From: an uncultured delta proteobacterium
Lineage (GTDB): Bacteria; Myxococcota_A; Polyangia; Fen-1088
Direction: 5' to 3'
NCBI GenBank assembly: GCA_963767925.1
Contig: CAVYGB010000006.1
Span: 224,001 to 288,000, forward strand
DNA: 64,000 nt
A program made the position numbers and the translations under genes. This document shows, piece after piece, positions 21,745-63,021 of this stretch (positions within the stretch are counted from its first letter, which is position 1; every line of letters starts with the position of its first letter). The notes beneath the pieces are model-generated. The model had not been told where the DNA came from. It was given only the letters and a program-made list of their open reading frames with translations, and made no database searches.

Positions 21745-23127
21745 TTGACAAACAACGCGTTCGTTCCCGCAAGCCGCGCACAGGAGCTGTGGTGGACCGT
21801 GCATTGCCTGACCAGCACCACGCCCGCCGGAAAGATCCTGGCCGCCCGGCGCCTGCGCGCCCCCATCGATCCTGGAATGATGGAGCAGAGCCTGCGGCTG
21901 GCTGCTGCTCGCCACGAGTCCTTGCGGACCGGACTGGTACGCAAGGGCGACCAGCTCATGCAGACCATCGCCCCGGAGGCCCCGGTCACCCTGCGCGTGG
22001 TGGATCTGGTCGATCTGCCGGTGGAGGAAGGCCTGCTGCGGGTGGACGCCATCACAGCGGAGGAGGTGCAGCGCCCCTTCCAGGTCGAGCATCCGCCGCT
22101 GTTTCACTCGGTCCTGGCCCGCCTGGCATCCGACGACTTCGTCCTCCTCGTGACTCTCCTGCACTCCATCTTCGATGAGTTCTCCCAGCAGTTGCTGGTG
22201 GGTGAGCTGCGCGCGCTTTACGCCAGGGTCGCCGGCGCGCCGCACGCCCGCACCCTCGCTCCGCCGACCCAGTTCCGCCAGCTCAGTGGCTGGCAGCTCG
22301 CATGGGAGCGCGACCCCCGGCTCCGGGGCCAGTACGAGTACTGGTCACGAAAGCTCGAGGGATATCAGGCGAAGATTGACCTTCCGGTGCGAAGGCCTCG
22401 CCCCGAGGTCTCGATCGACACCCGCGCCCTTTTCCGGGCCATCTTGCCCGCCGACCGCTGGAAGGCGGCCCTGGCCCTGGCGCGGAGCGAAGCCGTGACG
22501 CCGTTCGCATTGCTCCTCGCCGCTCTTGCCCTCGTGCTCGCCGATCAGTCCGGCCAGGACGAGATCGTCCTCGGAGCGGTCTACGCGAACCGCAGGCTCC
22601 CCTTCACACAGTCGATCATGGGTCTCGTCATGAACATCCTGCTCCTGCGGGCAAACCTGGCCGGCGACCCCACCCTCCGTCAGTTCTTGAAGCAGGTCAC
22701 CCGCGACTGGCTCGAAGCGCTCGAGAACGGCGAGCTGCCTTTCGAGGAGCTGGCCCGGCGGTTCGGGGTCTCCCGGGTGGTGCGGGGGTCGGCACCGGCC
22801 TACGAGGCCCTCGTGAACTTCAACGTTTCGTCGGCGCTGAGCGACGACGATCGCCCATCCTGGATGCAGCCCTGGGTCCCTACCCGGCAGCCGGAGCCGA
22901 CGCCCTGCGCTTGGGCCGGCTGTCCGCTGTTTCTCACCCTGTTCGTTACCGCCGAGGGCTCGCTGCGGGTGGACTTCCGCTACACCGAGGAGCTCCTGGA
23001 GCGAGCGGTCATCAGCCGGCTGGCCGCCCTATATCTCGACCTGCTCGGAGAGCTGCCGCGCCTTCTCGACACCCCCGTATCACGGCTTGGCGCCGTCTTC
23101 AGCCGGGCAGCCGCAGCGAGCCCATGA
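21745..23127 (+). CDS. Stand-alone NRPS condensation domain protein
   Basis: RHESLRT, active site LHSIFDE (catalytic His position kept), YWSRKL, LPFEEL; no A or T domain; TTG start. Confidence 0.85.
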   Translation: MTNNAFVPASRAQELWWTVHCLTSTTPAGKILAARRLRAPIDPGMMEQSLRLAAARHESLRTGLVRKGDQLMQTIAPEAPVTLRVVDLVDLPVEEGLLRVDAITAEEVQRPFQVEHPPLFHSVLARLASDDFVLLVTLLHSIFDEFSQQLLVGELRALYARVAGAPHARTLAPPTQFRQLSGWQLAWERDPRLRGQYEYWSRKLEGYQAKIDLPVRRPRPEVSIDTRALFRAILPADRWKAALALARSEAVTPFALLLAALALVLADQSGQDEIVLGAVYANRRLPFTQSIMGLVMNILLLRANLAGDPTLRQFLKQVTRDWLEALENGELPFEELARRFGVSRVVRGSAPAYEALVNFNVSSALSDDDRPSWMQPWVPTRQPEPTPCAWAGCPLFLTLFVTAEGSLRVDFRYTEELLERAVISRLAALYLDLLGELPRLLDTPVSRLGAVFSRAAAASP

Positions 23128-24940: not shown

Positions 24941-24976
24941 GCCTCTCCGGATGGCGGCGCGGGCCCGGGGGAGCAG

Positions 24977-27262: not shown

Positions 27263-29667
27263 GCGGCGCGGACGGCCCGGGCAGGCTCTATCGAGGTGGC
27301 CCGCGCTGCCGGGATGAGGCTCGCGACAACGCTCACGCAGATGAGCAGGACAGCCACCACGACGGCTAGCGTCCAGCTCTCGTTCAGGACGTTTCCGAGA
27401 AAGCCAGCGAGGACCCGGCGGGCGGCTACCAGGACCGCGACCCCCGCGAGCACACCCATCCCGGAGACAAGCAGCGCCTCTCTCATCACGAGCGCGAAGA
27501 TGCGAGGCCGGGAGGCCCCGAGTGTGAGCCGAATGCCAAAGTCCTTGGTTCGCTGGACCACGAGGTAACTGATGAGGCCATAAAGACCCACGGCGGCCAT
27601 GACCAAGGCCAGCAGGCAAAACGCCATGAGCATCCCGGTCGTCAGGCTCCGACCCGCGAACTGGAGCTCCGAGAACGTCTCGTAAGTCATGACGTTGCTG
27701 ACCGGCTGCTCGGCGTCGACCTGCCACACCCGGGAGGGGAGGCTGGCGAGCAGGGAGGCGGGATCCCCGGAGGTCTTGATCATGAAGGTCATCGCCAGCC
27801 GGGGACTTTGCGGATGAGGCAGGTAGATCGCCGGTCCGAAGACCGCGGACCGGTCCATGAGAACATCTCCCACCACCCCCACGATCCGGCGAGGCGCATC
27901 GAAGATGAAGATCTGCTTGCCCAGAACGTTCCCGTCGGGAAAGTAGCGTCGAGCGAGGGCCTGGCTGACCACCGCCACGAGGTCAGCGGTGATGCTGTCT
28001 TGCGACTGGAAGGTCCGGCCCTGCAGGATCGGGATCGCCAGCAGCTCGAAGTAGCCCAGGCTCACCGCTCGCCAGCTGGCGAGCGGCGCCTCCCCACCGA
28101 CCGCGGCCCGCTGCTCGGGCAAGGTGAAGCGCACGCGGGGATCCGACTGGCTCCTGGGGAGCTGGGTGGTGTAGGCCGCGCCCGAGACGCCCGGCAACTC
28201 GGCCACCTTGCTCCGGATCCGGTCGAACGTGGGCGTGACCGTCTGGGTCGCCGTGAACTGTTCCTTGGCGAACTTCGCCGTGGGCAGCGAAACCCGCATG
28301 GTGACCAGGCCCTCGGCGTCGAAGCCGCCCTGCTGGTTGCGGAGCTTCAGGAAGCCGACGATCATGTCACCTCCCACGACGAGCAGGGAGAGGGCGAGCA
28401 TCACCTCTCCCGCGACAAGCAGGCGGGCGGCGTGACGATACGTTCGACTCTGGCTGCCCGAACGCCCGCTCTCCTGGAGCATCGGACGCAGATTGATCGC
28501 CGACACCTGCAGGGCGGGGGCCATCCCGAAGGCGATTCCCGACAGCATCGAGACGCCAATCGTGAAGGCAAGCACGCTGCCGTCCAGCCGCAACGGGTTC
28601 CAGTATTGACCGGACCAGGCCGTGGCAGCCAGCACCTCGACAGCGAAGGAGCACAACCCGAGCGCCACCGCTCCCCCGATGAGGGCGAGGATGACACTCT
28701 CCACCAGGGACTGACGCATGAGCGCCCAGCGCGATGCCCCCAGCGCGGAGCGGGTCGCCATCTCGAACGCCCGACCTTTGCCCTTGGCGAGCTGAAGATT
28801 GGCCACGTTCGCGCAGGCGATGAGCAAGACCATGATCACCGCCCCCATCAAGATGGCAGTTAGGCGGCGGTCGCGCTCGCCCGGGAAGACCTTGTCGATC
28901 GCCTTCACCAGGACCCCGAAGCCTCCGTTCTCGCGAGGAAACGTCGCGGCCAGCCCGCGCCCGACCTGGCTCATGTCTGCCTGGGCCTGCTCCGGGGTCA
29001 CGCCCTGTCGCAGGCGGCCCACGACCGTCAGGTAGTGATCATCGCGTTTGAGCGTTTCACCCTGCCAGGCCAGCGGCGCCCAGATGTCGCTGCGGGAGGA
29101 AAGATACCAGCCTGGTCGCATCACCCCGATGATGGCGTGCGGCACGCCGTCGAGCCGCACCTGCTTGCCGATCACCGAGCGGTCGCCGTCGAACCGGCGT
29201 TGCCACAGGGCGTGGGAGATGATCGCGACCGGGGCGGCCTGAGACCTTGCTTCATCGGGGGCGAAGCTGCGCCCGAGGAGCGGCGGCGTCCCCAAGGTCT
29301 CGAAGAATCCAGCGCTGACGCGCGCTCCCTGCATCTCCTCGGGCCCGCCTTGATCGAGCATCACGAACTGCGTGCTCTGGTAGGCGCCAAGGTGCTCGAA
29401 GGAGCGATTCTGGCTCCGCCAGTCCACGAAGTTGGCCGGGGCCACGTCCCCGAAGTCCTCGGGGCTCTGGAGCCGGTTCTGGTAGAGCAACATCACCCGC
29501 TCCGGCTCGCGCAGCGGGAGTGGCTGAAGGACCAGGGCGTTCATCACGCTGAACACGACCGAGTTCACGCTGATGCCGAGGGCCAGAGAGAGCGCGGCCG
29601 CCGCACTCAGGAACGGCGTCCGCCGCAGCGAGCGGAGGCCTACCACGATGTCATGTTTGAGGCTCAT
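27259..29667 (-). CDS. Duplicated MacB/FtsX-type (ADOP-like) ABC permease
   Basis: LRSLRRTP..LALGISVNS, LLIACANVANL, second repeat ending PAARATSIEP. Confidence 0.92.
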   Translation of the reverse strand: MSLKHDIVVGLRSLRRTPFLSAAAALSLALGISVNSVVFSVMNALVLQPLPLREPERVMLLYQNRLQSPEDFGDVAPANFVDWRSQNRSFEHLGAYQSTQFVMLDQGGPEEMQGARVSAGFFETLGTPPLLGRSFAPDEARSQAAPVAIISHALWQRRFDGDRSVIGKQVRLDGVPHAIIGVMRPGWYLSSRSDIWAPLAWQGETLKRDDHYLTVVGRLRQGVTPEQAQADMSQVGRGLAATFPRENGGFGVLVKAIDKVFPGERDRRLTAILMGAVIMVLLIACANVANLQLAKGKGRAFEMATRSALGASRWALMRQSLVESVILALIGGAVALGLCSFAVEVLAATAWSGQYWNPLRLDGSVLAFTIGVSMLSGIAFGMAPALQVSAINLRPMLQESGRSGSQSRTYRHAARLLVAGEVMLALSLLVVGGDMIVGFLKLRNQQGGFDAEGLVTMRVSLPTAKFAKEQFTATQTVTPTFDRIRSKVAELPGVSGAAYTTQLPRSQSDPRVRFTLPEQRAAVGGEAPLASWRAVSLGYFELLAIPILQGRTFQSQDSITADLVAVVSQALARRYFPDGNVLGKQIFIFDAPRRIVGVVGDVLMDRSAVFGPAIYLPHPQSPRLAMTFMIKTSGDPASLLASLPSRVWQVDAEQPVSNVMTYETFSELQFAGRSLTTGMLMAFCLLALVMAAVGLYGLISYLVVQRTKDFGIRLTLGASRPRIFALVMREALLVSGMGVLAGVAVLVAARRVLAGFLGNVLNESWTLAVVVAVLLICVSVVASLIPAARATSIEPARAVRAA

Positions 29668-29674
29668 CGTCCCC

Positions 29675-31642
29675 TCACGATGCCTTGCTGCCGAGAACGT
29701 CGGCCAGCAACGAATCGACCTCCGCTTCGCTCATCTGCTGAACCTTCGCGGGCTGGCTCCCCTCCCCGCCGCCCCTCACCGGCGCGAGATGGGGCTCCTT
29801 GCCGAGGTGTGCGCCCGGGGCCCGGCGTTCCTCGATGTTGCGGGAGAGCTGCTCGACGGTGGGACATTCGAACAGCGTAGCCAGTGGGACGTCCACATCG
29901 AAACGGGCAGCCAGCCGGGAGATGAGCCCCATCGCCAGCAAGGAGTGGCCGCCGAGTTGAAAGAACTCCTCGTTGACCCCGACCTTCTCCAGGCCGAGCA
30001 CCTCGGCGAACAGCCGGGCCACCTCGCCTTCCATCTCGGTCCGGGGCGCGATCGGATCGACGCCCTGGGCTCGAGTCTGTTCCGGTGCCGGCAACGCCTT
30101 GCGATCGATCTTGCCCGTGGATGTCCGGGGTAGTCGGTCGAGCTTGACGAAGGTGGAGGGCACCATGGAATCGGGCAGGACCTCGGCGACCGCCTGACGA
30201 AGCTTCGCGATCGACAGCTCCGGGTCGGACACCACGTACGCACAGAGGTAGCTGTTGCCCAACCGATCAGACCGGCTCACCGCGACCGCCTCTGCCGCCA
30301 GACCGGTGGCCAGGATGGCGCTCTCCACCTCCGCCAGCTCCACCCGGACGCCCCGGATCTTCACCTGTTGATCTTTGCGGCCGAGAAATTCGATGCTGCC
30401 ATCATCCAGCCGTCGTCCCAGATCTCCGGTTCGGTAGACGATGTCCTTGGGATTCCGGGTCATGGGGTTGGCCACGAAGACCTGATCGGTCAGCTGAGGC
30501 TCGTTGTAGTAGCCCAGCGAACGATAGTCGGTGCGGATGTAGATTTCCCCCATCTCCCCCAGCTGCGCGGGCCGTCCAGCCTCGTCCAGGACGAGAGCCT
30601 TGGCTCCGGCCATCGGCCGGCCAACCGGGATGGACCGGCCAGCAGCGTCCTCTGGCTGGACGATATGAAAAAGCTTCACCATGGTGGTCTCGGTGGGCCC
30701 GTAGAGGTTGACCAGACGGATCCGGTCGCCGAAGACCTGCCGCCAGCGCTGCACATCGGCCGGCAAGAGGGGCTCACCGGCCATCAACACATAGCGAAGC
30801 GCCGGAAACAGCTCGGGCTTCAATTCCTCGGCAAGCATGGTTCGGAACAACGAGGGCACGCAATGGACGATCTCGACCCTGGCCTCGTCCAGCCAGCGGA
30901 TGAGTCTCTTGGGATCGAGCACGTCCTCCGGGCTGTCGGGCACGCAAAGCGTGCCTCCCACACATAGGGGCGTGAAGGCATCCCGGAGAAATGCGTCGAA
31001 CACCAGCGACGTGAGCTGGCTGACCCGCGTCCCCGGCTTGACATCGAAGGTCTCGGCCTCCCACCGCACGAAGTGGTCGATGGCCTTCATGCGACCGGCG
31101 ATCGCCTTCGGTCGGCCGGTGGAGCCGGAGGTAAAGTAGATGTAACACATGTCGTCTGGCTCGGAGACCAGCGAGGGCGCTGCGCTCCCGTTCTCGATTC
31201 CGCCCTCCGTGTTGACGGGGGTGAAGGCGGGGAAGCCCTCGCCGGGCTCGTCCTGATCCACCGGAACGACGGGGGCGGAGCCGCCCAGCTTGCTCGCCAG
31301 CAGGGGCAAGACACGCCTCTCTGTCAGGATCGCCGCCGGCGGAACCCGCTCGAGCAGGGCGCGCAGCCTGCCCTCGGGCTGGTGGGGATCGATGGGCACG
31401 AAGATCGCCCCGATCTTGAGGACGCCGAGGATCGAGGGGACGGCGGCGAAACAGGTCTCGGCGGCCACATAGACCTTGGCCTCGGGCTGGATGCCCGACT
31501 GAAGCAAGTAGTTGCCGATGTTGTTGGACCAGGCGTCCAGCTCGGCGTAGCGGATCTGGCGCCCGGCGCTGACCAGCGCCGGAGCGGTCGGCCGCTCCGC
31601 GGCCACTTGTTCAAACATTTCGTGCACGAATGGCTGCCGCAT
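29675..31642 (-). CDS. Stand-alone NRPS A-T didomain, code DARHLALMVK (acidic substrate, Asp-like)
   Basis: YFTSGSTGRPK, NLYGPTE, YRTGD, GGHSL carrier; no C domain; C-terminal MSEAEVDSLLADVL helix. Confidence 0.93.
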   Translation of the reverse strand: MRQPFVHEMFEQVAAERPTAPALVSAGRQIRYAELDAWSNNIGNYLLQSGIQPEAKVYVAAETCFAAVPSILGVLKIGAIFVPIDPHQPEGRLRALLERVPPAAILTERRVLPLLASKLGGSAPVVPVDQDEPGEGFPAFTPVNTEGGIENGSAAPSLVSEPDDMCYIYFTSGSTGRPKAIAGRMKAIDHFVRWEAETFDVKPGTRVSQLTSLVFDAFLRDAFTPLCVGGTLCVPDSPEDVLDPKRLIRWLDEARVEIVHCVPSLFRTMLAEELKPELFPALRYVLMAGEPLLPADVQRWRQVFGDRIRLVNLYGPTETTMVKLFHIVQPEDAAGRSIPVGRPMAGAKALVLDEAGRPAQLGEMGEIYIRTDYRSLGYYNEPQLTDQVFVANPMTRNPKDIVYRTGDLGRRLDDGSIEFLGRKDQQVKIRGVRVELAEVESAILATGLAAEAVAVSRSDRLGNSYLCAYVVSDPELSIAKLRQAVAEVLPDSMVPSTFVKLDRLPRTSTGKIDRKALPAPEQTRAQGVDPIAPRTEMEGEVARLFAEVLGLEKVGVNEEFFQLGGHSLLAMGLISRLAARFDVDVPLATLFECPTVEQLSRNIEERRAPGAHLGKEPHLAPVRGGGEGSQPAKVQQMSEAEVDSLLADVLGSKAS

Positions 31643-31653
31643 GTGTGTTCTCC

Positions 31654-33412
31654 CTATTCCGCTGCCGGCTGCTGGTACGTCTTGACCACATCTATCCGCT
31701 CGACCAGCGTCGAGAGCGGCACATCCGGGTGATCGGCGGCCAGCCTCACGACCCGCTGATAGTCCTCGAGCAGCTCGAGCGCTGTCGCTCGGCTGTAGAG
31801 ATCGGTGTTGTATTCCAGCATCAAGAGCAGCTGCTCTGGCGATTCACTGACGAACAGGGTCAGATCGTACTTCGCCCGCCGGACCGACATGTTCATCGGA
31901 GAGAAGGTGACCCCGTCGAACTCCAGCTTCATCGGCACGTTCAGCAGGTCGAATACCACCTGAAACACCGGGGTACGGCTGGAGTCCCGCGGGGGCCGCA
32001 GCTCTTCCACGAGCCGCTGGAAGGGCAACTCCGCGTGGTTGAAGGCGTCGACCATGGTCCGACGCACGCGCTTTATCACCTCGATGAAAGTCGGATCACC
32101 CGAGAGGTTCGTGCGGAGCACCAGCTCGTTGACGAAGCACCCGATGAGCCGGGCGGTCTCGGAGCGATCCCGATTCGCGAAGTCCGTTCCCACCAGCAAG
32201 TCCCGCCGTCCCGTGCGAACGTGCAGCATGACGTTGAAGGCGGCGAACAGCGTCATGAACAGGGTGGCTTGCTCGGCTCGGGCCAGGTCGCGTACCCGTT
32301 CAAACATCCGGCGGTCGACCAGCACCTTCTCGACCGCACCGTTCGCCGTGCGAATCTTCGGGCGCGGCTTTTCGAGTGAAACCTCGAGGGTGAAAGGAGC
32401 CCCTGCCAGCTTGCGCTTCCAGTATTCGACCTCGGCGGCGACAGCGGCAGGCGTCAGCGTCCGGACCTGCCACTCGGCGTAGTCGGCGTACTGTACCGTC
32501 AAGCCCGGGAGCAGGGAGGTGTCACCCTTGCTCGCGAACAGCACCCCCAGCTCTTCCAGAAAGACACCCACCGACCATTCGTCCCCGATGATGTGATGCA
32601 GGGTGAGCAGAAGAAGCCGCTCGTCCGGCGCGGTACGAAAGCTGTTGATCCGCAGCAGCGGACCGGACGTCAGATCGAAGGGCCGCACCGCCTCGGCCAC
32701 GAGGGCGGCCATCACCGCCTCATCGCGCTCCGACGGCGGTACCTCCTCAAAGCTCCGTTCGGCGATGGCGATCTCCCGGCTCGGGGCGATGATCTGCAGC
32801 GGACCGGCCGGGCCCTCCACGAAATTGGTCCGGAGGATCTCGTGGCGGGCGATGATGGCGTTGACACATGCCTGCAGCCGCTGCAGATCCAGGGGCCCGG
32901 TTGCGCATACGCCGGTGGCGATGTTGTGGGTGCCCGACCCAGGCGCCAGCTTCTCCATGAACCACAGGCCGCGCTGGGCGTACGAGAGCTCGGCGGTCAC
33001 CGCCCCCTCGACCGACGGGGCCAGCAGCCGCTCGAGCAGCAGCCTGCGTTGAGGCCCGGTGAGGACCGGCACACGCTCCCGCAGCCGGGCGAGGCTTGCC
33101 GTCCCGTCCGCCCTGAGGAGGTGACCGAGCTCGGCGGTCACCTGGTCATCCCCGAGCGACGCCACGCGGGCGCGATGCAGGTCTCGTGCGTCTACCCGCG
33201 GGCGGGCCTGGATCTTGGGTCGAGCGCCCCCTGCTCCTCCGTCCAGCTCCTGCAACCGCCGGAGCAGGGTCTCCTTCTGACCGCGCGTCAACCGGGACAG
33301 TCGATTCTTGCAGTCCGGAGAGCTGGGGGAGGTCGACGAGGATCTGGGCGATCCGGACGTCGAGATCCCCGTCCTTCGGCGGCCCGGCGACGGCTTCGCT
33401 CGAAGCACTCAT
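31654..33412 (-). CDS. Stand-alone condensation domain with extended docking-like N-terminus (probable 1-nt frameshift near 33305-33330)
   Basis: LSYAQRGLWF, RHEILRT, HHIIGDEWS, AKYDLTL. ATG at 33412 overlaps the upstream stop but is out of frame with the main ORF, which opens at GTG 33408. Confidence 0.85.
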
Positions 33413-35322
33413 CCCGCCGCCTTGGCGCTGAGCACGTCGGCCAGCAAGGAGTCGACGTCGGCGTCTGTCATCTGGTTGCCCTTGTCGGTCGCCCCACCCG
33501 GTGCTCCTGGCTGGAGCGGCTGGGCGCCGTCGTTCGCCGGCTCGGCCCGACGCCTCTCCTCTATCACGCGAACCACCTGCTCCACGGCGGGAAACTCGAA
33601 CAAGGTTGCCAGCGGCAGCTCCACCTCGAAATGAGTGGAGAGGCGGGCGAGGAGGCTCATCGCCAGCAAGGAGTGTCCCCCCATGCGGAAGAAGTCCTCG
33701 TTCACGCCTATCGAGTCCCGCCCCAGCACCTCGGCGAAGATGCGGGCCGCGTCCGCTTCAGCCCGGTTGCGGGGGCTGATGGGATCGACGTTGCTGCTCG
33801 TCTGCTCTGGCGCGGGGAGGGACTTCCGGTCGATCTTCCCCGTCGCGGTGCGAGGCAGCCAGTCGAGCTCGACGAAGGCGGAGGGGACGAGGTGGTCGGG
33901 CAAGCTGGCCGAGATGGCCTGGCGTACCTTCTCGATCGACCCCTCCTCGCTGGGCACGAGGTAGGCGCACAGGAAGGCGCTGCCCTGGCGGTCGGCGCGT
34001 CCCACCGCCGCCACCTCCTTCACCAGCCCCGTCGCGAGAATGGCGCTCTCGATCTCGCCGAGCTCCACCCGCACGCCGCGGATCTTGACTTGCTGGTCGC
34101 GGCGTCCGATGAACTCCAGGCTGCCATCTTCGAGCACCCGCCCGAGATCGCCCGTCCGGTAGACGATGTCGTCGGGTTCGTCGCCCAAGGGATTGGGCAC
34201 GAACACCTGTTCGGTCAACTCGGGGTTGTTGAAGTACCCCAGGGTGGCAAAGTCGGTCTTGATGTAGATCTCACCTACCGTCCCCTGCTCGGCGGGACCT
34301 CCCGCATCGTCCAGGACGAGCACGCTGGCTCCCGGCATGGCTCGACCGATCGGGACCGAACGGCGAACCCCGTCCTCGGGCCGGACCCGATGAAACAGCT
34401 TCACCATGGTGGTTTCGGTTGGCCCGTAGAGGTTCACGAGCCGGACGCGATCTCCGAACACCTGCGTCCAGCGCTGGACGTCGCTGGGCAGCAGGGGCTC
34501 GCCTGCCAGGGCGACGTGGCGAAGGGCCGGAAACAGGTCCGGGCGGAGAGGCTCCGCCAGGATGGTGCGAAAGAGCGAGGGAACCGCGTGCACGATCTCG
34601 ATCCGGGTCCCGTCGAGCCAGGCGACGAGGCGCCTGGGATCGAGTACGGTTTCGCGGCTCTCCGGAACGCACATGGTCCCACCGGCACACAGCGCCGTGA
34701 AGGTGTCGCGCAGGAATGCGTCGAACACGAAGGAGGTGAGCTGGGATACCCGGGTCCCTGGCCCCACGGCGAGCGCCTCCATCTCCCAGCGGACGAAGTG
34801 GTCGATGCTCTTGAGCCGGCCAGCGATCGCCTTCGGCCGGCCAGTAGAACCCGAGGTAAAGTAGACGTAACACATGTCCTCCGGCTCCGAGACGCCGGGA
34901 GGCGACTGCTCCGACCCGCGGGCGGCGCTCAGCTCGATGCCAACCACGGGCACGTCGCTCCTCCCCACCTTCTCGTGGACCGCTGCCCGCAGAGGCTCAG
35001 CGGCCAGAACGAAGGCGGGGGCGACCTGGGCGGTGAGGGCCCGGATCCGTGCCGCTGGTTGCTGGAGGTCGACGGGAACGAACACCGCGCCGATCTTGAG
35101 CGTGGCGAGCATCGAGGCCACCGCCGAGGGCGTGTTTGCCGCGGCCACGTATACGAGGGCGCCTTTGCGGGCTCCTCGGTCCAGGAGATCGTTTCCCAGC
35201 TGGTTCGACCACAGGTCGAGCTGCCGGTAGCTGAGCTCCTGCTGTCCGCTCAGGATGGCCGCCCGGTCGGGGTGGGCGAGGGCCGCCCGCTGGAACATCT
35301 CATGCACAAATGGTAGCCGCAT
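33409..35322 (-). CDS. Stand-alone NRPS A-T didomain, code DARHAALMVK; paralog of 29675-31642
   Basis: Same core motifs; shared DMCYxYFTSGSTGRPKAIAGR and NLYGPTETTMVKLFH; C-terminal MTDADVDSLLADVL. Confidence 0.93.
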   Translation of the reverse strand: MRLPFVHEMFQRAALAHPDRAAILSGQQELSYRQLDLWSNQLGNDLLDRGARKGALVYVAAANTPSAVASMLATLKIGAVFVPVDLQQPAARIRALTAQVAPAFVLAAEPLRAAVHEKVGRSDVPVVGIELSAARGSEQSPPGVSEPEDMCYVYFTSGSTGRPKAIAGRLKSIDHFVRWEMEALAVGPGTRVSQLTSFVFDAFLRDTFTALCAGGTMCVPESRETVLDPRRLVAWLDGTRIEIVHAVPSLFRTILAEPLRPDLFPALRHVALAGEPLLPSDVQRWTQVFGDRVRLVNLYGPTETTMVKLFHRVRPEDGVRRSVPIGRAMPGASVLVLDDAGGPAEQGTVGEIYIKTDFATLGYFNNPELTEQVFVPNPLGDEPDDIVYRTGDLGRVLEDGSLEFIGRRDQQVKIRGVRVELGEIESAILATGLVKEVAAVGRADRQGSAFLCAYLVPSEEGSIEKVRQAISASLPDHLVPSAFVELDWLPRTATGKIDRKSLPAPEQTSSNVDPISPRNRAEADAARIFAEVLGRDSIGVNEDFFRMGGHSLLAMSLLARLSTHFEVELPLATLFEFPAVEQVVRVIEERRRAEPANDGAQPLQPGAPGGATDKGNQMTDADVDSLLADVLSAKAAG

Positions 35323-36031
35323 TCTCTTCCTCCGCGGTTCGCCGAGCTATGGCAGACAAAGGATCGATGACCTCGAACTGCTGATTGAGGGCCGTCAGAC
35401 CGGCGCTCTCCCGAGAGAGCAGGTGAAGCTCCGTGCAGCCGGCGATGATTCCTCGCACCTGGTGCCGCACCGCAAGCTCCTGCACGACCCGTTCGAGCAC
35501 CTCCGTCTGGTGCTCGCGCTTGACCCGATAGATGGCCTGGTGCAGGCGCTCCTGCTCTTCCTCCGAGAGCTCGGCGATCCGCTCGCGGGAGCGGCGCCAG
35601 GCCGGATGATCGTGGAACAACCTCAGCTTCCTGGCGCCCGTGGTGCAAGCCAGCAGCACCCGCTGGTCGAACCGCAGCAACTCTTCGAAGACTGTGTCGA
35701 CCAGGGAGACCACCCGCCGGCGCAGGTCCGCCCTCACCAGGGGCAACAGGTGGTGCATGGTGACGCAGCAGATCACGACCTGTTCGGCCCCCTGGGCGAG
35801 CAGGCTTCCGATGCCTCCCTCCAGATCACGAAGCAGCGGCCGGTGATCGCCTCCGTTGAGGAACGTCGCCGTGCGATCCCCGATCTTGGGGTTCGAGTTG
35901 AGCAAGACGATCGGCGAGTCCTGCTCGATGCGGCCCCGGTACATCCCGTAGATGGTTCGTACGAACGCGGCCGACGCCAGCGGCCCCATGCCGCCGAGCA
36001 CGCCTATGGGCGACACCTGTGATTGCCTCAT
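35300..36031 (-). CDS. Aspartate/glutamate racemase
   Basis: IGVLGGMGPLAS, DRT, both catalytic Cys motifs (ICCVT, AGCTE), VIDP. Confidence 0.9.
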   Translation of the reverse strand: MRQSQVSPIGVLGGMGPLASAAFVRTIYGMYRGRIEQDSPIVLLNSNPKIGDRTATFLNGGDHRPLLRDLEGGIGSLLAQGAEQVVICCVTMHHLLPLVRADLRRRVVSLVDTVFEELLRFDQRVLLACTTGARKLRLFHDHPAWRRSRERIAELSEEEQERLHQAIYRVKREHQTEVLERVVQELAVRHQVRGIIAGCTELHLLSRESAGLTALNQQFEVIDPLSAIARRTAEEENAATICA

Positions 36032-36049
36032 TTTGCCCTCTCCTCCTGT

Positions 36050-37030
36050 CTACTGGCCGGTCATCGCCACGAGCACCTTGCGGTCGCCCTTGAAAGGCAT
36101 CCGACCGTGGGCCACCAGCATGTTGTCCACCATCAGAAAGTCTCCGGGGCGCCAGGGGAAGCGAGTCATCTGCGCGCGGGTGGTCTCGCGGATGGCGGCC
36201 AGGTCCTCGATCGGTATCTTGCCGCCGTCACCAAAGAAGGCGTTCTGGGGAAAGAGCTCCTCCCGTCCCTGGTAAAGAACGAGCATCGACTCGTAGATCG
36301 CCCGAGGGTGGGTCGACGGATGAAATTGATCGGCCTGGTTGAACCAGACCTCCTCCCCGGTCAGCGGATGAAGTGCGGTAGCCGGACGGACAGAGGACAG
36401 GCGAACCGCCCCTTCGGCCAGCCACTCGAGCGTCATCCCAGAGGCCCGGGCGTAATGCTCGATGTCCGACCGCGCTTCTGTCTGGAAGGTCTTCTGCCAG
36501 GAGGGTCCGAACCCCTTGCCCCCATGCATGTGACGGACGTAGCGGACACCTCTGCTCCGGAACCTCTCGAGGAGCGGCGCCGGCAGCGCCTTCAGCAAAC
36601 CCCGGCTGTCCACCAGCGGCGTCTCTCCGCCCTCTGGCGGCGCCTGGACGCAGCAGAAGAACAGCCGGCGGGGCCAGGAGCCCGAGTAGGAGAGCTCGTT
36701 GTGCAGAGAGATGAAGTAGCTGGCGGGGTATTCGGTCGACGTGTAGACGCCGGCCCCCACCTTGGTGCGGGGCGAGTTGCCGTCGACGTAGTCCAGGGTC
36801 TCCCGCTTGAGGTCAGCCATCACCTGCCCGAAGACCTCCGCCTCGCCCACCTGGAAGCCCCGGAACAGGATCGCCCCGTGCTGGTACAGACACGGGTCGA
36901 GACGCTCATCCTCCCGGAACAGTCGCAGGAGACTCTCGCGACCGTCAGGACGGTTGGCGCCGTCCAGCTCGATGACGAAGGGAAGTGCGCGCGCTGGCGT
37001 CGCCTGCTTCGCCGCCTGGAGCATCGTCAT
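36050..37030 (-). CDS. Stand-alone TauD/SyrP-like Fe(II)/2-oxoglutarate dioxygenase
   Basis: GAILFRGF, VYTSTEYP, HNE iron ligands, GGETP, DNMLVAHGR. Confidence 0.93.
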   Translation of the reverse strand: MTMLQAAKQATPARALPFVIELDGANRPDGRESLLRLFREDERLDPCLYQHGAILFRGFQVGEAEVFGQVMADLKRETLDYVDGNSPRTKVGAGVYTSTEYPASYFISLHNELSYSGSWPRRLFFCCVQAPPEGGETPLVDSRGLLKALPAPLLERFRSRGVRYVRHMHGGKGFGPSWQKTFQTEARSDIEHYARASGMTLEWLAEGAVRLSSVRPATALHPLTGEEVWFNQADQFHPSTHPRAIYESMLVLYQGREELFPQNAFFGDGGKIPIEDLAAIRETTRAQMTRFPWRPGDFLMVDNMLVAHGRMPFKGDRKVLVAMTGQ

Positions 37031-37033
37031 GAC

Positions 37034-38902
37034 CTAGGCGAGCTCCGGCATGGAGAAGATCTCCTGAAAGAGCCCGAAGGTCGCGACCACCATCAGCCAG
37101 TCGCTCTCGAAGGGCTGCTTCAGCCGGAAGTTTGGCGCGGAGTACTGGCGCTTGAGCGTCTCGATGAAACCAGGGTCGAAGTAGCCCTGCCGACGGATGG
37201 TGGCCGGCGACAACATGTCATGGATCCACTCGACTCCCTGTTGCAGCATCTCCGGGCTTCCGGGGGCGTACCAGCCGAACTTCTCCCGGCGCTGGATGGC
37301 CTCGGGGAGCACGTCCTTGCCCATCCGCCGCAGGAGATACTTCTCGGTATAGCCACGCAGCTTCAGGTTCGGAGGAATCTTCCGGGCGTATTCGATGAAT
37401 CCGATGTCGAGGAAGGGGTATCGAGCTTCGACGGAGTTTGCCAGTGCCATCGCGTCCCCGTGATCCATGAGGAGGTGGTCGGCCATCCTGAGCTTGAAGT
37501 CGAGGTAGGATCGCTGGTGCACCGGGTGGCGGCCCACGATCCGATCCTTCCGGACCAGGGGGTGTTGCAGGCAGTTGAACTGAGGAAAGGCGCCTTGCAC
37601 CTCCCGGGAGTAGAGCAGTGGCCGCCGCTGCTGGTCGTCGTAGTAGTCGAGCTCGTAGTGGACGTTGGCGTCACCCCAGAGCGCCTCCCGCATCCTCTCC
37701 TCGACCAGCTCGCCGGGTTGGGCGTTGCCCAGGGCCCGTTCGGTCCGGGCCCGGTCGAATCGATAGCCAACGTAGCCGGCGAAGAGCTCATCTGCCCCTT
37801 CTCCGGTCAAGATGACCTTTATCCCCTCCGCCCGGGCGGCCCGCGAGAGCTCCATGGAGCAGGTGTTGTAGGTCTCCTTTACCGGACACTCGGCGTGATA
37901 GATCATGGGTCGCATCAGACTGGCCGCCCGGTTCCAGTCGAAGCGCGCGCTGTGCAACTGGCAACCCACCTGGTCGGCCATGAGCTGCTGGAATCGCTGC
38001 TCGTCGGCGCGCTGGTCGGCGAAGGTGATCGAGAAGGCGTGGCGGCCAAGGCCTGGCTCGATCTGGCTGATGAAGGCGGCCGTGAGCGATGAGTCCAGCC
38101 CCCCGCTAAGATAGAAGCCGACCGGCACGTCGGCCTGCAGGCGATAACGAACCGAGCGGGTGAATGCCTCGGTCAAGCCCTCGAGATACTTCTCCTCGGG
38201 TTCATCGGGCTGATCGGCCGCCGCGGGGTAGTCCAGGTCCCAGTACTCGTGATCCTGGACTCCCTGGGCGTCGACAAGCAGGTAGTGTCCGGGAGCGAGC
38301 CGCTGAATCCCCTTGAAGACGGTGCGCGGGCTGACCAGCCCCGGAAAGGTCAGGATCTGGTCGAGGCCGGTCAGGTCCACCTCCCGCGAAACCGCGGGGT
38401 GCTTCAAGATGGCCTTTATCTCCGAGCCGAACACGAAGGTCCCCTTGGCGGTCGTGAAATGCAGGGGCGCGATGCCGACGTGATCGCGGGCCAACATCAA
38501 CCGCCGCCGGGTGCGATCCAGCAGGGCAAAAGCGAACTGTCCGTTGAGCTTTCGCACCATCTCGGGTCCGTGCTCTTCATAGAGATGGACCAGCACCTCC
38601 ACGTCGCACTGGCTGCGGAACCTGTGACCGCGGGCCTCCAGCTCCGCGCGCAGCTCCTTGTAGTTGTAGATCTCGCCGTTACAGACCACGGCCACCGACT
38701 CGTCTTCATTGAACAGCGGCTGGTCGCCGGTGGTCAGGTCGATGATGGCCAGACGACGAAAGCCCAGGGCCACGTAGGTGTCCTGAAAGGACCCGTCCGC
38801 GTCAGGCCCGCGATGTCGGAGGGTCTCGGCCATCCGTCCGATCAAGGAGGGGTCGGATCGAGCACCGGTGCCCATATCGAAGTATCCAGCAATTCCGCAC
38901 AT
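37034..38902 (-). CDS. asnB: Asparagine synthase (glutamine-hydrolysing) / amidotransferase
   Basis: N-terminal MCGIAG, HRGPD, RRLAIID, NGEIYN, LSGGLDSS, TGEGADELFAGY. Confidence 0.95.
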   Translation of the reverse strand: MCGIAGYFDMGTGARSDPSLIGRMAETLRHRGPDADGSFQDTYVALGFRRLAIIDLTTGDQPLFNEDESVAVVCNGEIYNYKELRAELEARGHRFRSQCDVEVLVHLYEEHGPEMVRKLNGQFAFALLDRTRRRLMLARDHVGIAPLHFTTAKGTFVFGSEIKAILKHPAVSREVDLTGLDQILTFPGLVSPRTVFKGIQRLAPGHYLLVDAQGVQDHEYWDLDYPAAADQPDEPEEKYLEGLTEAFTRSVRYRLQADVPVGFYLSGGLDSSLTAAFISQIEPGLGRHAFSITFADQRADEQRFQQLMADQVGCQLHSARFDWNRAASLMRPMIYHAECPVKETYNTCSMELSRAARAEGIKVILTGEGADELFAGYVGYRFDRARTERALGNAQPGELVEERMREALWGDANVHYELDYYDDQQRRPLLYSREVQGAFPQFNCLQHPLVRKDRIVGRHPVHQRSYLDFKLRMADHLLMDHGDAMALANSVEARYPFLDIGFIEYARKIPPNLKLRGYTEKYLLRRMGKDVLPEAIQRREKFGWYAPGSPEMLQQGVEWIHDMLSPATIRRQGYFDPGFIETLKRQYSAPNFRLKQPFESDWLMVVATFGLFQEIFSMPELA

Positions 38903-38919
38903 GACTTCTCCTGACTCCG

Positions 38920-39471
38920 TCAGACGGCGATGGCCCGGCGGAGCTCCGCCCCTTGCCGGCAGAGGTCGGGGAGCAGCTCGAGTTGCTCCGCTTTCACTTC
39001 CGCTGCCACCGCCCGCTGAAGCATGGTCACCGAAACGATCACCCGGAGCCGCTCCCGAGTCGCGAGCAGGACCCCCTCGAGACCGGCGAGCGGGCCGGCG
39101 ATCACCCGCACCCGCTGGCCGACCCGCAGGGAGGCGGGCTCGGCGGGTACGCCCAGCTCGACGATCCGGCGAACCGCCTCCACCTCCGCCTCGGGGACGG
39201 CGAGGGGAGCATTGTTGACGCCCAGCAAGCGAATAACGCCGTTGACCTGGATTATCCGGTGAGGGTTGTCTTTGGCGTAACGGCAGAACAGATATCCCGG
39301 AAACAGCGGCAGGCGGGCTCGCTCGTTCCCGAGGGCGCCGCGCGGGCGGTACAGCGGCAGGAACTGTTCGTAGCCATGGCGGCTGAGCTGTGTGGCGACG
39401 ACCCTTTCGTAGTTGGTGCGGACCAGAACCGCTATCCAATCACCTTCGCGGCAGCTACGTGAATTCAGCAT
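38920..39471 (-). CDS. NusG paralog (RfaH/UpxY/LoaP/TaA-like antiterminator)
   Basis: NGN domain WIAVLVRTNYE..FLP..PLFPGYLF; KOW GQRVRVIAGPLAGLEG. Confidence 0.9.
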   Translation of the reverse strand: MLNSRSCREGDWIAVLVRTNYERVVATQLSRHGYEQFLPLYRPRGALGNERARLPLFPGYLFCRYAKDNPHRIIQVNGVIRLLGVNNAPLAVPEAEVEAVRRIVELGVPAEPASLRVGQRVRVIAGPLAGLEGVLLATRERLRVIVSVTMLQRAVAAEVKAEQLELLPDLCRQGAELRRAIAV

Positions 39472-39536
39472 GTCTTTCCCCACTGTTTCTCCGAGGAGTC
39501 TCGCCGCAGCCCTCTCCTCCGCCTGAGTCAGGAAGG

Positions 39537-39548
39537 CAGGCTGCCGCC
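39537..39548 (-). promoter_or_regulatory. ops-like pause element in the leader of the NusG paralog
   Basis: Minus strand GGCGGCAGCCTG versus RfaH ops consensus GGCGGTAGnnTG (one mismatch), about 65 nt before the start codon. Confidence 0.3.
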
Positions 39549-40456: not shown

Positions 40457-40513
40457 GGACTCTCCTTACGATGTGGCCGAAGTAGGAATCCTCGCGATGG
40501 CCAGCCTCGAGGA

Positions 40514-62779: not shown

Positions 62780-63007
62780 TCAGCGGTCGAGGCCTGTCTT
62801 CTCCTCGACGAGCTGGCGGCGCACGCTGAGCGGCCGCATGTCGGTCCAGGTCTCTTCGATGAAGGCCAGGCACTCGGATCTCGTTCCCGTCTTGCCAGCG
62901 GGTCGCCAGCCCAGGGGCAGCGGCCGGGCGGCCGGCCAGATCGAATATTGCTCTTCCAGGTTCATCACGGCCTGGTAGGGGGTCGTTTCGTCGTCAGGCT
63001 GGCTCAT
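62780..63007 (-). CDS. mbtH: MbtH-like protein
   Basis: [30 protein letters not shown]. Confidence 0.95.
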
Positions 63008-63021
63008 CGTGCTCTCGTCCT

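What the first reader, a model, noticed from the sequence alone, without database searches (positions are those of the whole stretch)
29675..39471. Dissociated mini-NRPS predicted to build iso-linked D-Asp/Asn units: AsnB + TauD + racemase + A-T + C + A-T
Seen: a contiguous sub-operon with an amidotransferase, a dioxygenase, a two-Cys Asp/Glu racemase, two paralogous A-T didomains and one free C domain. Both A pockets have Arg at position 239 and His at 278 (DARHAALMVK, DARHLALMVK). Known, from memory: microcystin uses the Asp racemase McyF and DARH/DPRH-type A domains (McyB-A2, McyE) to install D-MeAsp and D-Glu through side-chain carboxyls. Inference: D-Asp is made, activated at the beta-carboxyl, optionally hydroxylated and amidated (iso-Asn), and joined in trans as a dipeptide, oligomer or branch on the lipopeptide. 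The single pocket difference (Ala/Leu at 299) may split substrates. I do not recognise this cassette from a characterised pathway.
Basis: partly seen in the sequence, partly recalled or inferred. Interest (0 to 1): 0.85.

Follow-up and report, generated by a model that had tools for sequence, protein, structure and literature searches.

The report
Conserved D-aspartate-type NRPS building-block cassette
Six neighbouring genes form a small peptide-building unit that most likely adds two modified D-aspartate-like residues to a lipopeptide, and the same uncharacterised gene set recurs in many uncultured soil bacteria.

Summary
On the minus strand lie a NusG-like gene, AsnB (37034-38902), TauD (36050-37030), a two-Cys racemase (35300-36031), A-T (33409-35322), a free C domain (31654-33408) and a paralogous A-T (29675-31642).

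New here:
- The racemase's best solved relative is McyF.
- 103 of the 120 best homologues of the A-T share D-A-R-H. Most are free-standing and come from metagenomes.
- TauD, racemase and AsnB recur beside such A domains elsewhere. One contig has the same TauD-racemase-A-T order. Many contig-length coincidences point the same way.
- The cassette sits at the end of a FAAL-NRPS-PKS line, with two further free C domains, an MbtH-like gene and exporters.

Best reading: racemase-made D-Asp, or a close derivative, is loaded on both carriers. It is hydroxylated and amidated there, the free C joins the two residues, and they form the last two modules of the lipopeptide line.

Open: whether the beta-carboxyl is activated (iso-linkage) could not be tested. 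The microcystin pocket codes are recalled, not checked. My literature searches found no characterised pathway with this gene set. MIBiG could not be searched.

The parts
38920..39471 (-). NusG/UpxY/LoaP-like antiterminator heading the sub-operon (183 aa)
   Evidence: Pfam NusG 2.4e-13 plus a weak KOW hit. NCBIfam UpxY 81.6 bits, RfaH and LoaP, all below their cut-offs. Start read.
37034..38902 (-). AsnB-type glutamine-dependent amidotransferase (622 aa)
   Evidence: Pfam Asn_synthase and GATase_7. TIGR01536 scores 466.8 against a cut-off of 267.1. MCGIAGY start and SGGLDS loop. 54% identical to the AsnB next to a related A-T-C in L024. Other AsnB paralogues in the same genome are 41% identical or less.
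36050..37030 (-). TauD/TfdA-family Fe(II)/2-oxoglutarate hydroxylase (326 aa)
   Evidence: Pfam TauD 1.5e-41. Best solved relatives are At3g21360 and 9yut, and only these two chains matched at E 0.001 or better. 42% identical to the TauD domain fused to the NRPS at 49326-54971. 50-55% identical to the TauDs beside related A domains in L001 and L023, and 60% over the 90 aa available in L015.
35300..36031 (-). Two-Cys aspartate-type racemase, McyF-like (243 aa)
   Evidence: Pfam Asp_Glu_race. TIGR00035 scores 93.4 against a cut-off of 93.1. CuyB scores 118.3, below its cut-off of 190. Best PDB hit is McyF at 114.8 bits. Only one strong copy in the genome.
33409..35322 (-). AT1: free-standing adenylation-carrier protein, pocket DARHAALMVK (637 aa)
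   Evidence: Domains. Pocket. GGHS carrier motif. Conserved C-terminal tail ...MTDADVDSLLADVL....
31654..33408 (-). C2free: free-standing condensation domain, LCL-like by its solved relatives, HHIIGDEWS. Start uncertain: GTG at 33408, or an in-frame TTG about 100 nt downstream.
   Evidence: Pfam Condensation 4.1e-89. Best solved relatives are Txo2, Txo1, 5u89 and TycC6. SrfA-C, TycB1 and McyB1 score far lower. Motif. The N-terminal region holds two LSxxQxxLLxRL-like stretches.
29675..31642 (-). AT2: paralogous free-standing adenylation-carrier protein, pocket DARHLALMVK (655 aa)
   Evidence: Domains. Pocket. GGHS motif. Tail ...MSEAEVDSLLADVL....
27259..29667 (-). MacB-type ABC permease, 7 nt downstream of AT2 (context)
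   Evidence: Pfam MacB_PCD and FtsX.
24977..27262 (-). M28 metallopeptidase with an N-terminal hydrophobic anchor (context)
   Evidence: Pfam Peptidase_M28 4.4e-42. N-terminus read.
21745..23127 (+). C3free: divergent free C domain with motif LHSIFDE (second His kept). Candidate for hand-over or release (context).
   Evidence: Pfam Condensation 4.3e-50. Weak LCL-like PDB hits. Motif.
40617..46298 (-). PKS module KS-AT-KR-DH-ACP, upstream line (context)
   Evidence: Pfam. 42% identical over 1745 aa to the PKS that follows the related A-T-C-A-T in L001.
46123..60340 (-). Main NRPS line: FAAL-ACP-C-A-T (54968-60340), C-A-T-C-TauD (49326-54971), His-less C-like domain-A-T (46123-49329) (context)
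   Evidence: Pfam. Motifs. Pocket regions.
62780..63025 (-). MbtH-like protein (81 aa) (context)
   Evidence: 74 bits, cut-off 27.
63022..64000 (-). C1free: free DCL-like C domain with motif [10 protein letters not shown] (second His replaced by Leu). It runs off the window to about 64644 (context).
   Evidence: Best PDB hit is the McyB1 C domain, 354.6 bits. Motif. The HL form occurs 0 times among about 700 such motifs in the 150 best-scoring proteins.

Best explanation
The six genes are a building-block cassette plus two trans-acting extension modules of a hybrid lipopeptide-polyketide assembly line.

Proposed steps:
1. The McyF-like racemase makes D-aspartate, or a close 3-substituted derivative.
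2. Each of the two free A-T proteins selects this acidic amino acid with an Arg239/His278 pocket and loads it on its own carrier domain. The MbtH-like protein at 62780-63025 may help.
3. The TauD enzyme hydroxylates the carrier-bound residue.
4. The AsnB enzyme uses glutamine and ATP to turn the residue's remaining free carboxylate into an amide.
5. The free C domain (C2free) joins the AT1-bound residue to the AT2-bound residue.
6. One of the two other free C domains of the cluster hands the upstream acyl chain (FAAL-NRPS-PKS) to AT1. The other free C domain, or the free thioesterase, releases the product.

Shown: the gene families, intact catalytic motifs, pocket residues, McyF-likeness, and recurrence of the gene set elsewhere.

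Inferred: the substrate identity, that tailoring happens on the carrier, the order of steps, and the link to the main line.

Open: whether the thioester is made at the beta-carboxyl (iso-linked D-isoAsn-type units) or at the alpha-carboxyl. I lean slightly to the beta-carboxyl.
For: Families and motifs:
- Pfam and NCBIfam assignments.
- Motif reads.
- Pocket codes.

Racemase:
- Best solved relative is McyF at 114.8 bits. The next distinct aspartate racemase scores 63.2.
- It is the only strong copy in the genome.

The A-T family:
- Of the 120 best homologues, the two window proteins included, 103 read D-A-R-H, 9 D-G-R-H and 5 D-G-K-H. One each reads D-G-K-Q and D-G-R-Q, and one has a gap at these columns.
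- 84 are free A-T proteins under 700 aa.

Direct synteny elsewhere:
- L015 has TauD (60% identical), racemase (55%) and A-T (52%) in the window's order.
- L001 and L023 have TauD followed by A-T-C-A-T.
- L024 has AsnB (54% identical) followed by A-T-C.

Indirect co-location, by identical longest-contig lengths across three independent homologue tables of 120 rows each:
- A-T and racemase share 10 values.
- A-T and AsnB share 13.
- Racemase and AsnB share 11.
- All three share 7.

Other support:
- The TauD is 42% identical to an NRPS-fused TauD domain in the same cluster. Only At3g21360 and 9yut matched among solved structures. This favours a carrier-bound substrate.
- C2free has an intact HHxxxD motif.
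- The carrier and condensation count fits an in-line reading: 7 carriers, 3 in-line active C domains, 1 KS and 3 free C domains.

Precedents from papers:
- In Lactococcus peptidoglycan, RacD makes D-Asp, AslA ligates it through beta-aspartyl phosphate, and the asparagine synthase AsnH then amidates its alpha-carboxyl (PMC4155827, passages read).
- CysJ hydroxylates Asn bound to the stand-alone module CysH (PMC7966384, abstract).
- An aspartate racemase is proposed to supply D-Asp to an NRPS that has no E domain in speirobactin (PMC12406682, passage).
Against: - No assay and no product is known.
- C2free groups with LCL-type C domains by its solved relatives. That is not what an alpha-linked D-donor on AT1 would predict. 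It is neutral for a beta-linked donor.
- The racemase is not universal beside this A family. No homologue was found in G798, G436 or G412 at E 1e-5 or better. G412 is 86% complete; no completeness figure was given for G798 or G436. In G801 it lies on another contig. The A domains of G798 and G436 read DGKH and DPRH, but G412's reads DARH.
- Contig-length coincidences are indirect, and on long contigs they do not show adjacency.
- In L001 and L023 the related A-T stands at the start of a protein with no C domain before it, like a starter. An in-line role here is therefore not guaranteed.
- C1free lacks the second His of the active-site motif, so one of the three free C domains the in-line model needs may be inactive.
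- The AsnB passes NCBI's general asparagine-synthase model. It could simply make free Asn.
Confidence: 0.5

Rival explanations
1. Conventional linkage. The Arg239/His278 pocket binds the side-chain carboxylate of D- or L-Asp. The alpha-carboxyl is activated as usual, TauD makes 3-hydroxy-Asp on the carrier, and AsnB amidates the beta-carboxylate. The result is (3-hydroxy-)asparagine residues with normal peptide bonds.
For: - In the one characterised case read here, CysJ hydroxylates L-asparagine bound to the stand-alone module CysH (abstract of PMC7966384). SyrP acting on Asp is my recollection.
- The TauD here resembles an NRPS-fused TauD.
- AsnB enzymes normally adenylate the beta-carboxylate of Asp, and this one passes TIGR01536.
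- C2free is an ordinary LCL-like C domain.
Against: - Known alpha-activating Asp pockets use Lys278 and His322 (recalled), not Arg239 and His278.
- A dedicated McyF-like racemase together with an LCL-type downstream C fits an alpha-linked D-donor poorly.
- The AsnH precedent shows an AsnB-type enzyme amidating the alpha-carboxyl of a beta-linked D-Asp.
Confidence: 0.3
2. Off-line precursor factory. The free A-T proteins are tailoring platforms only. The residue or dipeptide made on them is released or shuttled, rather than extending the lipopeptide chain in line. It could be a separate small product or a branch added later.
For: - Relatives of the A-T occur as A-T-TE single modules: 4 of 120 lie in the 700-950 aa class. 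Three of those four carry the thioesterase family PF00975 in the precomputed Pfam column, and L022 is a further A-T-TE.
- Relatives also occur as apparent starters (L001, L023).
- The NusG-like gene and a 250-nt gap set the cassette apart from the main line.
- GC is 0.64-0.68 across 28-42 kb, against about 0.70 in the main NRPS genes.
- No orthologue appears in 40 relatives. Their best identity is 37%, against 63% for the in-genome paralogue.
Against: - The cluster has no fused terminal TE and would otherwise end at a PKS ACP.
- Three free C domains and two free A-T proteins complete the line without leftovers.
- No shuttling acyltransferase was seen.
Confidence: 0.12
3. Different substrate. 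The pocket selects another anionic amino acid, such as D-Glu through its gamma-carboxyl, cysteate, or 3-methyl-Asp, and the racemase acts on that compound.
For: - The racemase's best NCBIfam score is to cysteate racemase CuyB (118.3 bits).
Against: - The CuyB score is below its cut-off of 190, while the general Asp-racemase model is passed.
- The best solved relative is the aspartate racemase McyF.
- An AsnB partner fits Asp chemistry best.
Confidence: 0.08

Closest known systems
Microcystin D-MeAsp/D-Asp supply and loading (McyF racemase with the McyB second module; McyE for D-Glu)
   Same: - A McyF-like two-Cys racemase is the best solved relative.
- There is no E domain for the residue.
- The A-domain pocket has Arg at 239 and His at 278.
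   Different: - Here the A-T proteins are free-standing and duplicated.
- TauD and AsnB are added, and no methyl-aspartate genes were seen.
- The host is not a cyanobacterium, going by the names on its homologues.
- Kinship of the A domains to McyB-A2 or McyE was not tested, because no reference sequence was available. The solved McyB fragment is module 1, which activates Leu.
Peptidoglycan D-Asp cross-bridge pathway of Lactococcus and lactobacilli (RacD, AslA, AsnH)
   Same: The chemical logic matches the iso reading: a racemase makes D-Asp, the beta-carboxyl is activated and ligated, then an asparagine-synthase homologue amidates the free alpha-carboxyl to give D-isoAsn (PMC4155827, passages).
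   Different: - Activation there is by an ATP-grasp ligase through beta-aspartyl phosphate on a lipid-linked precursor.
- Here it is an NRPS adenylation-carrier protein, and no ATP-grasp gene is present.
- Sequence kinship of this AsnB to AsnH was not tested.
Cystobactamid linker module (stand-alone CysH, hydroxylase CysJ, methyltransferase CysQ, shuttle CysB)
   Same: A stand-alone NRPS module carries an Asn-type residue that is hydroxylated while on the carrier, giving (iso)asparagine-type linkers (abstract of PMC7966384).
   Different: - CysH contains an AMDH domain that makes the iso form from Asn.
- AT1 and AT2 show only AMP-binding, AMP-binding_C and PP-binding.
- Here an AsnB and a racemase are present instead, and no methyltransferase or CysB-like shuttle was seen.
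Dissociated NRPS systems with free A-T and free C proteins (for example pacidamycin, vibriobactin; recalled)
   Same: Single-domain and didomain proteins work in trans.
   Different: This is a general architecture only. No shared building block was tested. The comparison is from memory.

Membership tests
NRPS amino-acid adenylation domain with carrier (A-T) | AMP-binding, AMP-binding_C and PP-binding domains; TIGR01733 above its cut-off; carrier Ser motif | tested here: met
   Pfam. TIGR01733 scores 375.8 and 375.1 against a cut-off of 317.4. GGHS is present in both proteins.
Microcystin-type side-chain-activating A domains (McyB-A2, McyE) | Arg at pocket position 239 and His at 278 | tested here: inconclusive
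   The window residues are Arg and His. The reference codes are recalled only, and text searches for them found 0 papers.
Microcystin-type side-chain-activating A domains (McyB-A2, McyE) | Thioester formed at the beta- or gamma-carboxyl (iso-linkage) | not testable with these tools
   This needs unloading chemistry or a product structure.
Microcystin-type side-chain-activating A domains (McyB-A2, McyE) | Phylogenetic grouping with McyB-A2, McyE or Nda domains | not tested
   No reference sequences could be fetched. PDB 8hlk is McyB module 1, which activates Leu.
McyF-type aspartate racemase | Two catalytic Cys motifs and the Asp/Glu racemase fold family | tested here: met
   Both Cys motifs align with those of McyF. 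The Cys changed to Ser in entry 5xnk aligns with a Cys here. TIGR00035 scores 93.4 against 93.1.
McyF-type aspartate racemase | Racemises Asp (and 3-methyl-Asp) | not testable with these tools
   Needs an enzyme assay.
Carrier-dependent TauD-type amino-acid beta-hydroxylases (SyrP-like, recalled; CysJ) | TauD fold with an Fe-binding H-x-D/E ... H and a 2-oxoglutarate-binding Arg | tested here: met
   Pfam TauD. LHNE and AHGR align to the At3g21360 motifs.
Carrier-dependent TauD-type amino-acid beta-hydroxylases (SyrP-like, recalled; CysJ) | Acts on the carrier-bound, not the free, amino acid | not testable with these tools
   Indirect only: 42% identity to an NRPS-fused TauD domain, and only At3g21360 and 9yut matched in the PDB at E 0.001 or better.
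Class II glutamine amidotransferase / asparagine synthetase B | N-terminal nucleophile Cys, PP-loop SGGxDS, family model above its cut-off | tested here: met
   MCGIAGY. SGGLDS. TIGR01536 scores 466.8 against 267.1, but E. coli-type AsnB NF006949 scores 321, below its cut-off of 499.
LCL-type condensation domain | HHxxxDG-type motif and closest kinship to L-donor C domains | tested here: met
   HHIIGDEWS. The top solved relatives are Txo2, Txo1, 5u89 and TycC6. SrfA-C, TycB1 and McyB1 score 78-101 bits. The L/D typing of those entries is from my knowledge.
Cystobactamid CysH-type AMDH module | AMDH domain between A and T | tested here: not met
   Only AMP-binding, AMP-binding_C and PP-binding were found in proteins of 637 and 655 aa.
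Peptidoglycan D-Asp ligase system (RacD/AslA/AsnH) | ATP-grasp D-aspartate ligase | tested here: not met
   No ATP-grasp family appears among the Pfam hits of the ORFs I scanned across about 21.7-64.6 kb. Small ORFs were not all scanned.

The most novel reading that the evidence does not exclude
A widespread, undescribed four-enzyme cassette of uncultured soil bacteria: a McyF-like racemase, an Arg239/His278 A-T, TauD and AsnB. It would install iso-linked D-(3-hydroxy)isoasparagine units by activating the beta-carboxyl of D-Asp and amidating the alpha-carboxyl on the carrier. That would make it an NRPS counterpart of the peptidoglycan RacD/AslA/AsnH route. In this genome it is duplicated, so that two consecutive iso-peptide bonds end a lipopeptide-polyketide.
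Probability: 0.3. Interest if true: 0.75.

Novelty: new variant of a known kind. Interest (0 to 1): 0.6.

Why it matters
If the reading holds, a single conserved pocket (D-A-R-H-L-A-L-M-V/T-K) and its three helper enzymes define a building block that current specificity predictors would not name. The pocket is present in most of the 120 best homologues, drawn from a database hit list of thousands, chiefly from Acidobacteriota-labelled metagenome bins.

Assigning it once by experiment would annotate many orphan clusters at a stroke.

It would also show whether side-chain (iso) activation of acidic D-amino acids, so far tied to cyanobacterial toxins, is a general NRPS strategy. Iso-linked, amidated D-residues would make peptides resistant to ordinary proteases, which matters for natural-product discovery from uncultured soil bacteria.

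Tried and rejected
Collection and genome scans:
- Genome and metagenome scans with AT1 gave few loci: 2 and 1. The single-protein patterns were too specific.
- Searching 40 relatives found no orthologue. The best identity was 37%.
- In the window's phylum, 2 of 401 genomes matched at E 1e-130 or better: the window's own genome and G412.
- In the phylum of L001, 3 of 401 matched. In both phylum runs only the top 3 candidates per genome were scored.

Look-ups that gave nothing useful:
- Cluster look-up gave no organism names.
- The ESM Atlas returned only generic AMP-binding clusters.
- Earlier-findings look-ups returned nothing.

Literature:
- Text searches for the recalled microcystin pocket strings found 0 papers.
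- Two microcystin papers did not give the McyB-A2 or McyE pockets.
- Searches combining aspartate racemase, asparagine synthetase or synthase, TauD and NRPS terms found no characterised cluster with this gene set.

Predictions and scans:
- Complex prediction of the AT1 C-terminal tail with the N-terminal region of C2free gave no verdict (score 0.16, mark 0.32).
- The promoter and terminator scan of 22900-40700 found nothing above shuffles.
- The exhaustive search with C1free returned giant multi-module NRPSs ranked by summed score. I used it only for a motif count.

Rejected ideas:
- An AMDH (CysH-like) route: no such domain.
- An AsnO-like free-Asn hydroxylase: only At3g21360 and 9yut matched in the PDB search.
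- Ala/Leu at 299 as a clean substrate split.

Full report
**1. What is there**

The window is GC-rich: 0.64-0.72 in 2-kb steps. The finding lies on the minus strand.

Pfam and NCBIfam give the following, in transcription order:

| Gene | Coordinates | Notes |
|---|---|---|
| NusG/UpxY-like antiterminator | 38920-39471 | |
| AsnB | 37034-38902 | true start MCGIAGY, |
| TauD | 36050-37030 | |
| Asp/Glu-family racemase | 35300-36031 | |
| AT1 (A-T) | 33409-35322 | |
| C2free (free C domain) | 31654-33408 | |
| AT2 (A-T) | 29675-31642 | |

- Gaps between these genes are 3-18 nt or overlaps.
- Catalytic motifs are intact:
  - both racemase Cys motifs;
  - H-x-E...H-x-R in TauD;
  - N-terminal Cys and SGGLDS in AsnB;
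  - GGHS in both carriers;
  - HHIIGDEWS in C2free.
- The pocket residues read DARHAALMVK for AT1 and DARHLALMVK for AT2. I read them from the motif context and from a 120-sequence alignment.

**2. The cluster around it**

Upstream on the same strand:
- a free C domain, C1free (63022 to about 64644, running off the window);
- an MbtH-like gene (62780-63025);
- an ABC exporter and a free thioesterase;
- FAAL-ACP-C-A-T (54968-60340);
- C-A-T-C-TauD (49326-54971);
- a C-like domain without any active-site His, followed by A-T (46123-49329);
- a PKS module KS-AT-KR-DH-ACP (40617-46298);
- an ABC ATPase.

Downstream of AT2:
- a MacB-type permease;
- an M28 peptidase with a hydrophobic N-terminus;
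- a sodium:solute symporter;
- on the other strand, a third free C domain, C3free (21745-23127).

Beyond 64644 the genes look unrelated to biosynthesis. The cluster therefore has:
- seven carrier domains;
- three in-line active C domains and one KS;
- three free C domains;
- no fused terminal TE.

**3. Typing the C domains**

- C2free's best solved relatives are Txo2, Txo1, 5u89 and TycC6 (202-244 bits). SrfA-C, TycB1 and McyB1 score 78-101 bits. By my knowledge of those entries this makes it LCL-like.
- C1free is the opposite. McyB1's C domain scores 354.6 bits, followed by bacitracin synthase 3, PvdL, SrfA-C and TycB1. That makes it DCL-like.
- C1free's motif reads [10 protein letters not shown]. 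The second His, usually taken as catalytic, is Leu.
- The only close relative among the C domains I compared is the C domain just upstream of AsnB and a related A-T-C in locus L024. It scores 376 bits and has the same HL form.
- In the 150 best-scoring proteins of an exhaustive search, about 700 motifs of this shape were 659 HH, 10 HQ, 1 HM and 0 HL.
- C3free keeps the second His (LHSIFDE).

**4. The racemase, TauD and AsnB**

- Racemase:
  - Its best solved relative is McyF at 114.8 bits. The next different protein, a Pyrococcus-type aspartate racemase, scores 63.2.
  - It just passes NCBI's aspartate-racemase model and fails the cysteate-racemase model.
  - The genome holds no second strong copy.
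- TauD:
  - Only two solved chains match at E 0.001 or better, At3g21360 and 9yut.
  - It is 42% identical to the TauD domain fused to the cluster's own NRPS. A fused domain must act on a tethered residue.
- AsnB:
  - It passes the general glutamine-dependent asparagine-synthase model but not the E. coli AsnB model.
  - The genome has at least four other AsnB-like regions, at 41% identity or less.

**5. The A-T proteins belong to a large, unnamed family**

- The word-indexed search gave 6871 proteins at E 1e-50 or better among 8000 scored candidates.
- In the 120 best, the two window proteins included:
  - 103 read D-A-R-H at positions 235, 236, 239 and 278;
  - 9 read D-G-R-H and 5 D-G-K-H;
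  - one each reads D-G-K-Q and D-G-R-Q, and one has a gap;
  - the commonest full code is AT2's, at 40 of 120.
- By length, 84 are under 700 aa (free A-T), 32 are 950 aa or more (A-T-C by their Pfam lists) and 4 lie between. Three of those four carry a thioesterase family.
- Source names, where given, are Thermoanaerobaculia and Pyrinomonadaceae bins. For the partner enzymes they also include Terracidiphilus, Acidobacteria and one Longimicrobiaceae bin.
- Free members share a C-terminal tail like LSxAEVDSLLADVL.
- A tree of 20 members puts AT2 with P0003 and P0007, and AT1 with P0004, P0005 and P0006. The two groups are sisters, with support 99/98. P0003 and P0005 share a longest-contig length, as do P0007 and a member of the P0006 cluster. 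The AT1/AT2 pair is therefore probably older than this genome.
- Residue 299 is Leu in P0004 inside the AT1 group, and Ala in another clade. It is not a stable split.

**6. The gene set recurs**

Direct evidence:
- L015 is a 1963-bp metagenome contig. It carries the end of a TauD (60% identical over 90 aa), a racemase (55%) and the start of an A-T (52%), in the window's order.
- L001, an Acidobacteriaceae bin, has TauD, then A(D-P-R-H)-T-C-A(Gly-like)-T, then a PKS. That PKS is 42% identical to the window's and has the same KS-AT-KR-DH order.
- L023 has TauD followed by A(DGKH)-T-C-A-T.
- L024 has a protein ending in T-C (HL form), then AsnB (54% identical, same 622 aa), then A(DGKH)-T-C.

Indirect evidence: the three homologue tables list the longest contig on which each protein was seen.
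- A-T and racemase share 10 identical lengths. One more comes through a cluster member, and L015's own length matches too.
- A-T and AsnB share 13.
- Racemase and AsnB share 11.
- All three share 7: 19250, 23618, 63915, 15495, 15041, 10024 and 136143.
- Six of the ten best foreign AsnB hits share a length with a racemase hit.

Limits and evidence against:
- On long contigs a shared length shows co-residence, not adjacency.
- No racemase homologue was found in G798, G436 or G412 at E 1e-5 or better. G412 is 86% complete; no completeness figure was given for G798 or G436. In G801 the racemase lies on another contig.
- Two of those racemase-less genomes carry the DGKH or DPRH variants, but G412 carries DARH.

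The cassette also looks foreign to its host lineage:
- There is no orthologue in 40 relatives.
- 2 of 401 genomes of its phylum matched at E 1e-130 or better, one of them the window's own genome.
- GC is about 4-5 points lower than in the main NRPS genes.

**7. How it most likely works**

- The racemase supplies a D-acidic amino acid, most likely D-Asp.
- Both A-T proteins load it.
- TauD and AsnB tailor it on or near the carrier.
- C2free joins AT1's residue to AT2's.
- The simplest wiring is in line: PKS ACP to AT1 by one free C domain, AT1 to AT2 by C2free, then release by the remaining free C domain or the free thioesterase.

This part is inference from domain counts. The starter-like position of relatives in L001 and L023, and the His-less C1free, keep an off-line or branching role alive.

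**8. Which carboxyl?**

For the iso reading:
- the McyF-like racemase;
- the Arg/His pocket;
- the absence of E domains;
- the peptidoglycan precedent. There, D-Asp made by RacD is activated at the beta-carboxyl and then amidated at the alpha-carboxyl by the asparagine synthase AsnH (PMC4155827, passages read);
- an LCL-type downstream C domain, which is no obstacle if the stereocentre is beta to the thioester.

For the conventional reading:
- carrier-dependent TauD hydroxylases act on alpha-linked residues in the characterised case read here (CysJ on CysH-bound Asn; abstract of PMC7966384);
- AsnB enzymes normally adenylate the beta-carboxylate.

I put the iso reading at about 0.3 overall and the conventional one at about the same.

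**9. Known or new**

- Eight literature searches were run.
- None found a characterised pathway with racemase, AsnB, TauD and such A-T proteins together.
- The nearest in logic are microcystin, the Lactococcus cross-bridge route, cystobactamid and speirobactin's racemase-fed NRPS (passage).
- The library lacks most subscription journals, and MIBiG could not be searched. 'Not in print' is therefore only as strong as those searches.

I rate it a new variant of a known kind: a trans-acting NRPS building-block cassette. The pocket is unassigned and the distribution is wide but unstudied.

Noticed in passing
window 63022-64000 (continues to about 64644 = L011:22-1644) and L024:5406-7520: A free DCL-like C domain whose active-site motif reads HLxxxDG, with the second His replaced by Leu. 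Its only close relative among the C domains compared (376 bits, same HL form) sits just upstream of AsnB and a related A-T-C in another genome. The HL form occurred 0 times among about 700 motifs in the 150 best database hits. It could be a non-condensing scaffold or an unusual catalyst tied to this cassette.
   Followed up: partly
window 46123-49329 and 49326-54971: One NRPS protein ends in C-TauD. The next begins with a C-like domain lacking both active-site His residues (LPALCAD), followed by an A domain whose hand-read pocket (about DAKDVVVVDK) looks Glu-like. This resembles the integrated hydroxylase plus 'interface' domain layout of siderophore NRPSs (recalled), and suggests a 3-hydroxy acidic residue in the main chain.
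   Followed up: partly
window 40617-46298 and L001:11073-16235: The PKS module has the unusual Pfam order KS-AT-KR-DH-ACP. It is shared, at 42% identity over 1745 aa, with the PKS that follows the related A-T-C-A-T in an Acidobacteriaceae bin.
   Followed up: partly
window 38920-39471, 39722-40456 and 27259-29667: A NusG/UpxY/LoaP-like antiterminator heads the sub-operon after a gap of about 250 nt. The cassette separates an ABC ATPase from a MacB-type permease, as if it had been inserted between the halves of an exporter. No promoter or terminator stood out above shuffles.
   Followed up: partly
window 24977-27262 and 23099-24940: An M28 metallopeptidase with an N-terminal hydrophobic anchor and about 460 C-terminal residues without a Pfam hit, followed by a sodium:solute symporter, lies directly downstream of the permease. 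Possibly export-coupled trimming or uptake.
   Followed up: no
window 32990-33408; 33409-33470; 29675-29740: The N-terminal extension of C2free holds two LSxxQxxLLxRL-like stretches. Both A-T proteins end in a conserved ...EVDSLLADVL... tail that is shared across the free A-T family. This may be a docking pair. The true start of C2free is uncertain, because the first 30 codons after the GTG at 33408 are low-complexity.
   Followed up: partly
window 28000-42000: GC is 0.64-0.68 here against about 0.70 in the main NRPS genes at 44-56 kb. Together with the lack of orthologues in 40 relatives, this hints at separate acquisition of the cassette.
   Followed up: no
G000:C8:2942508-2946014 (outside the window): A second AsnB-like gene (40% identical) lies next to an AMP-ligase-like gene. 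It recalls the exosortase-associated amidotransferase and ligase pair that both window proteins hit weakly in NCBIfam.
   Followed up: no
window 54968-60340: The first amino-acid module after the FAAL-ACP has a hand-read pocket DLFNNALTYK, which I recall as Ala-type. The longest ORFs of this protein and of the PKS have arginine-rich 5' extensions that are probably not translated.
   Followed up: no
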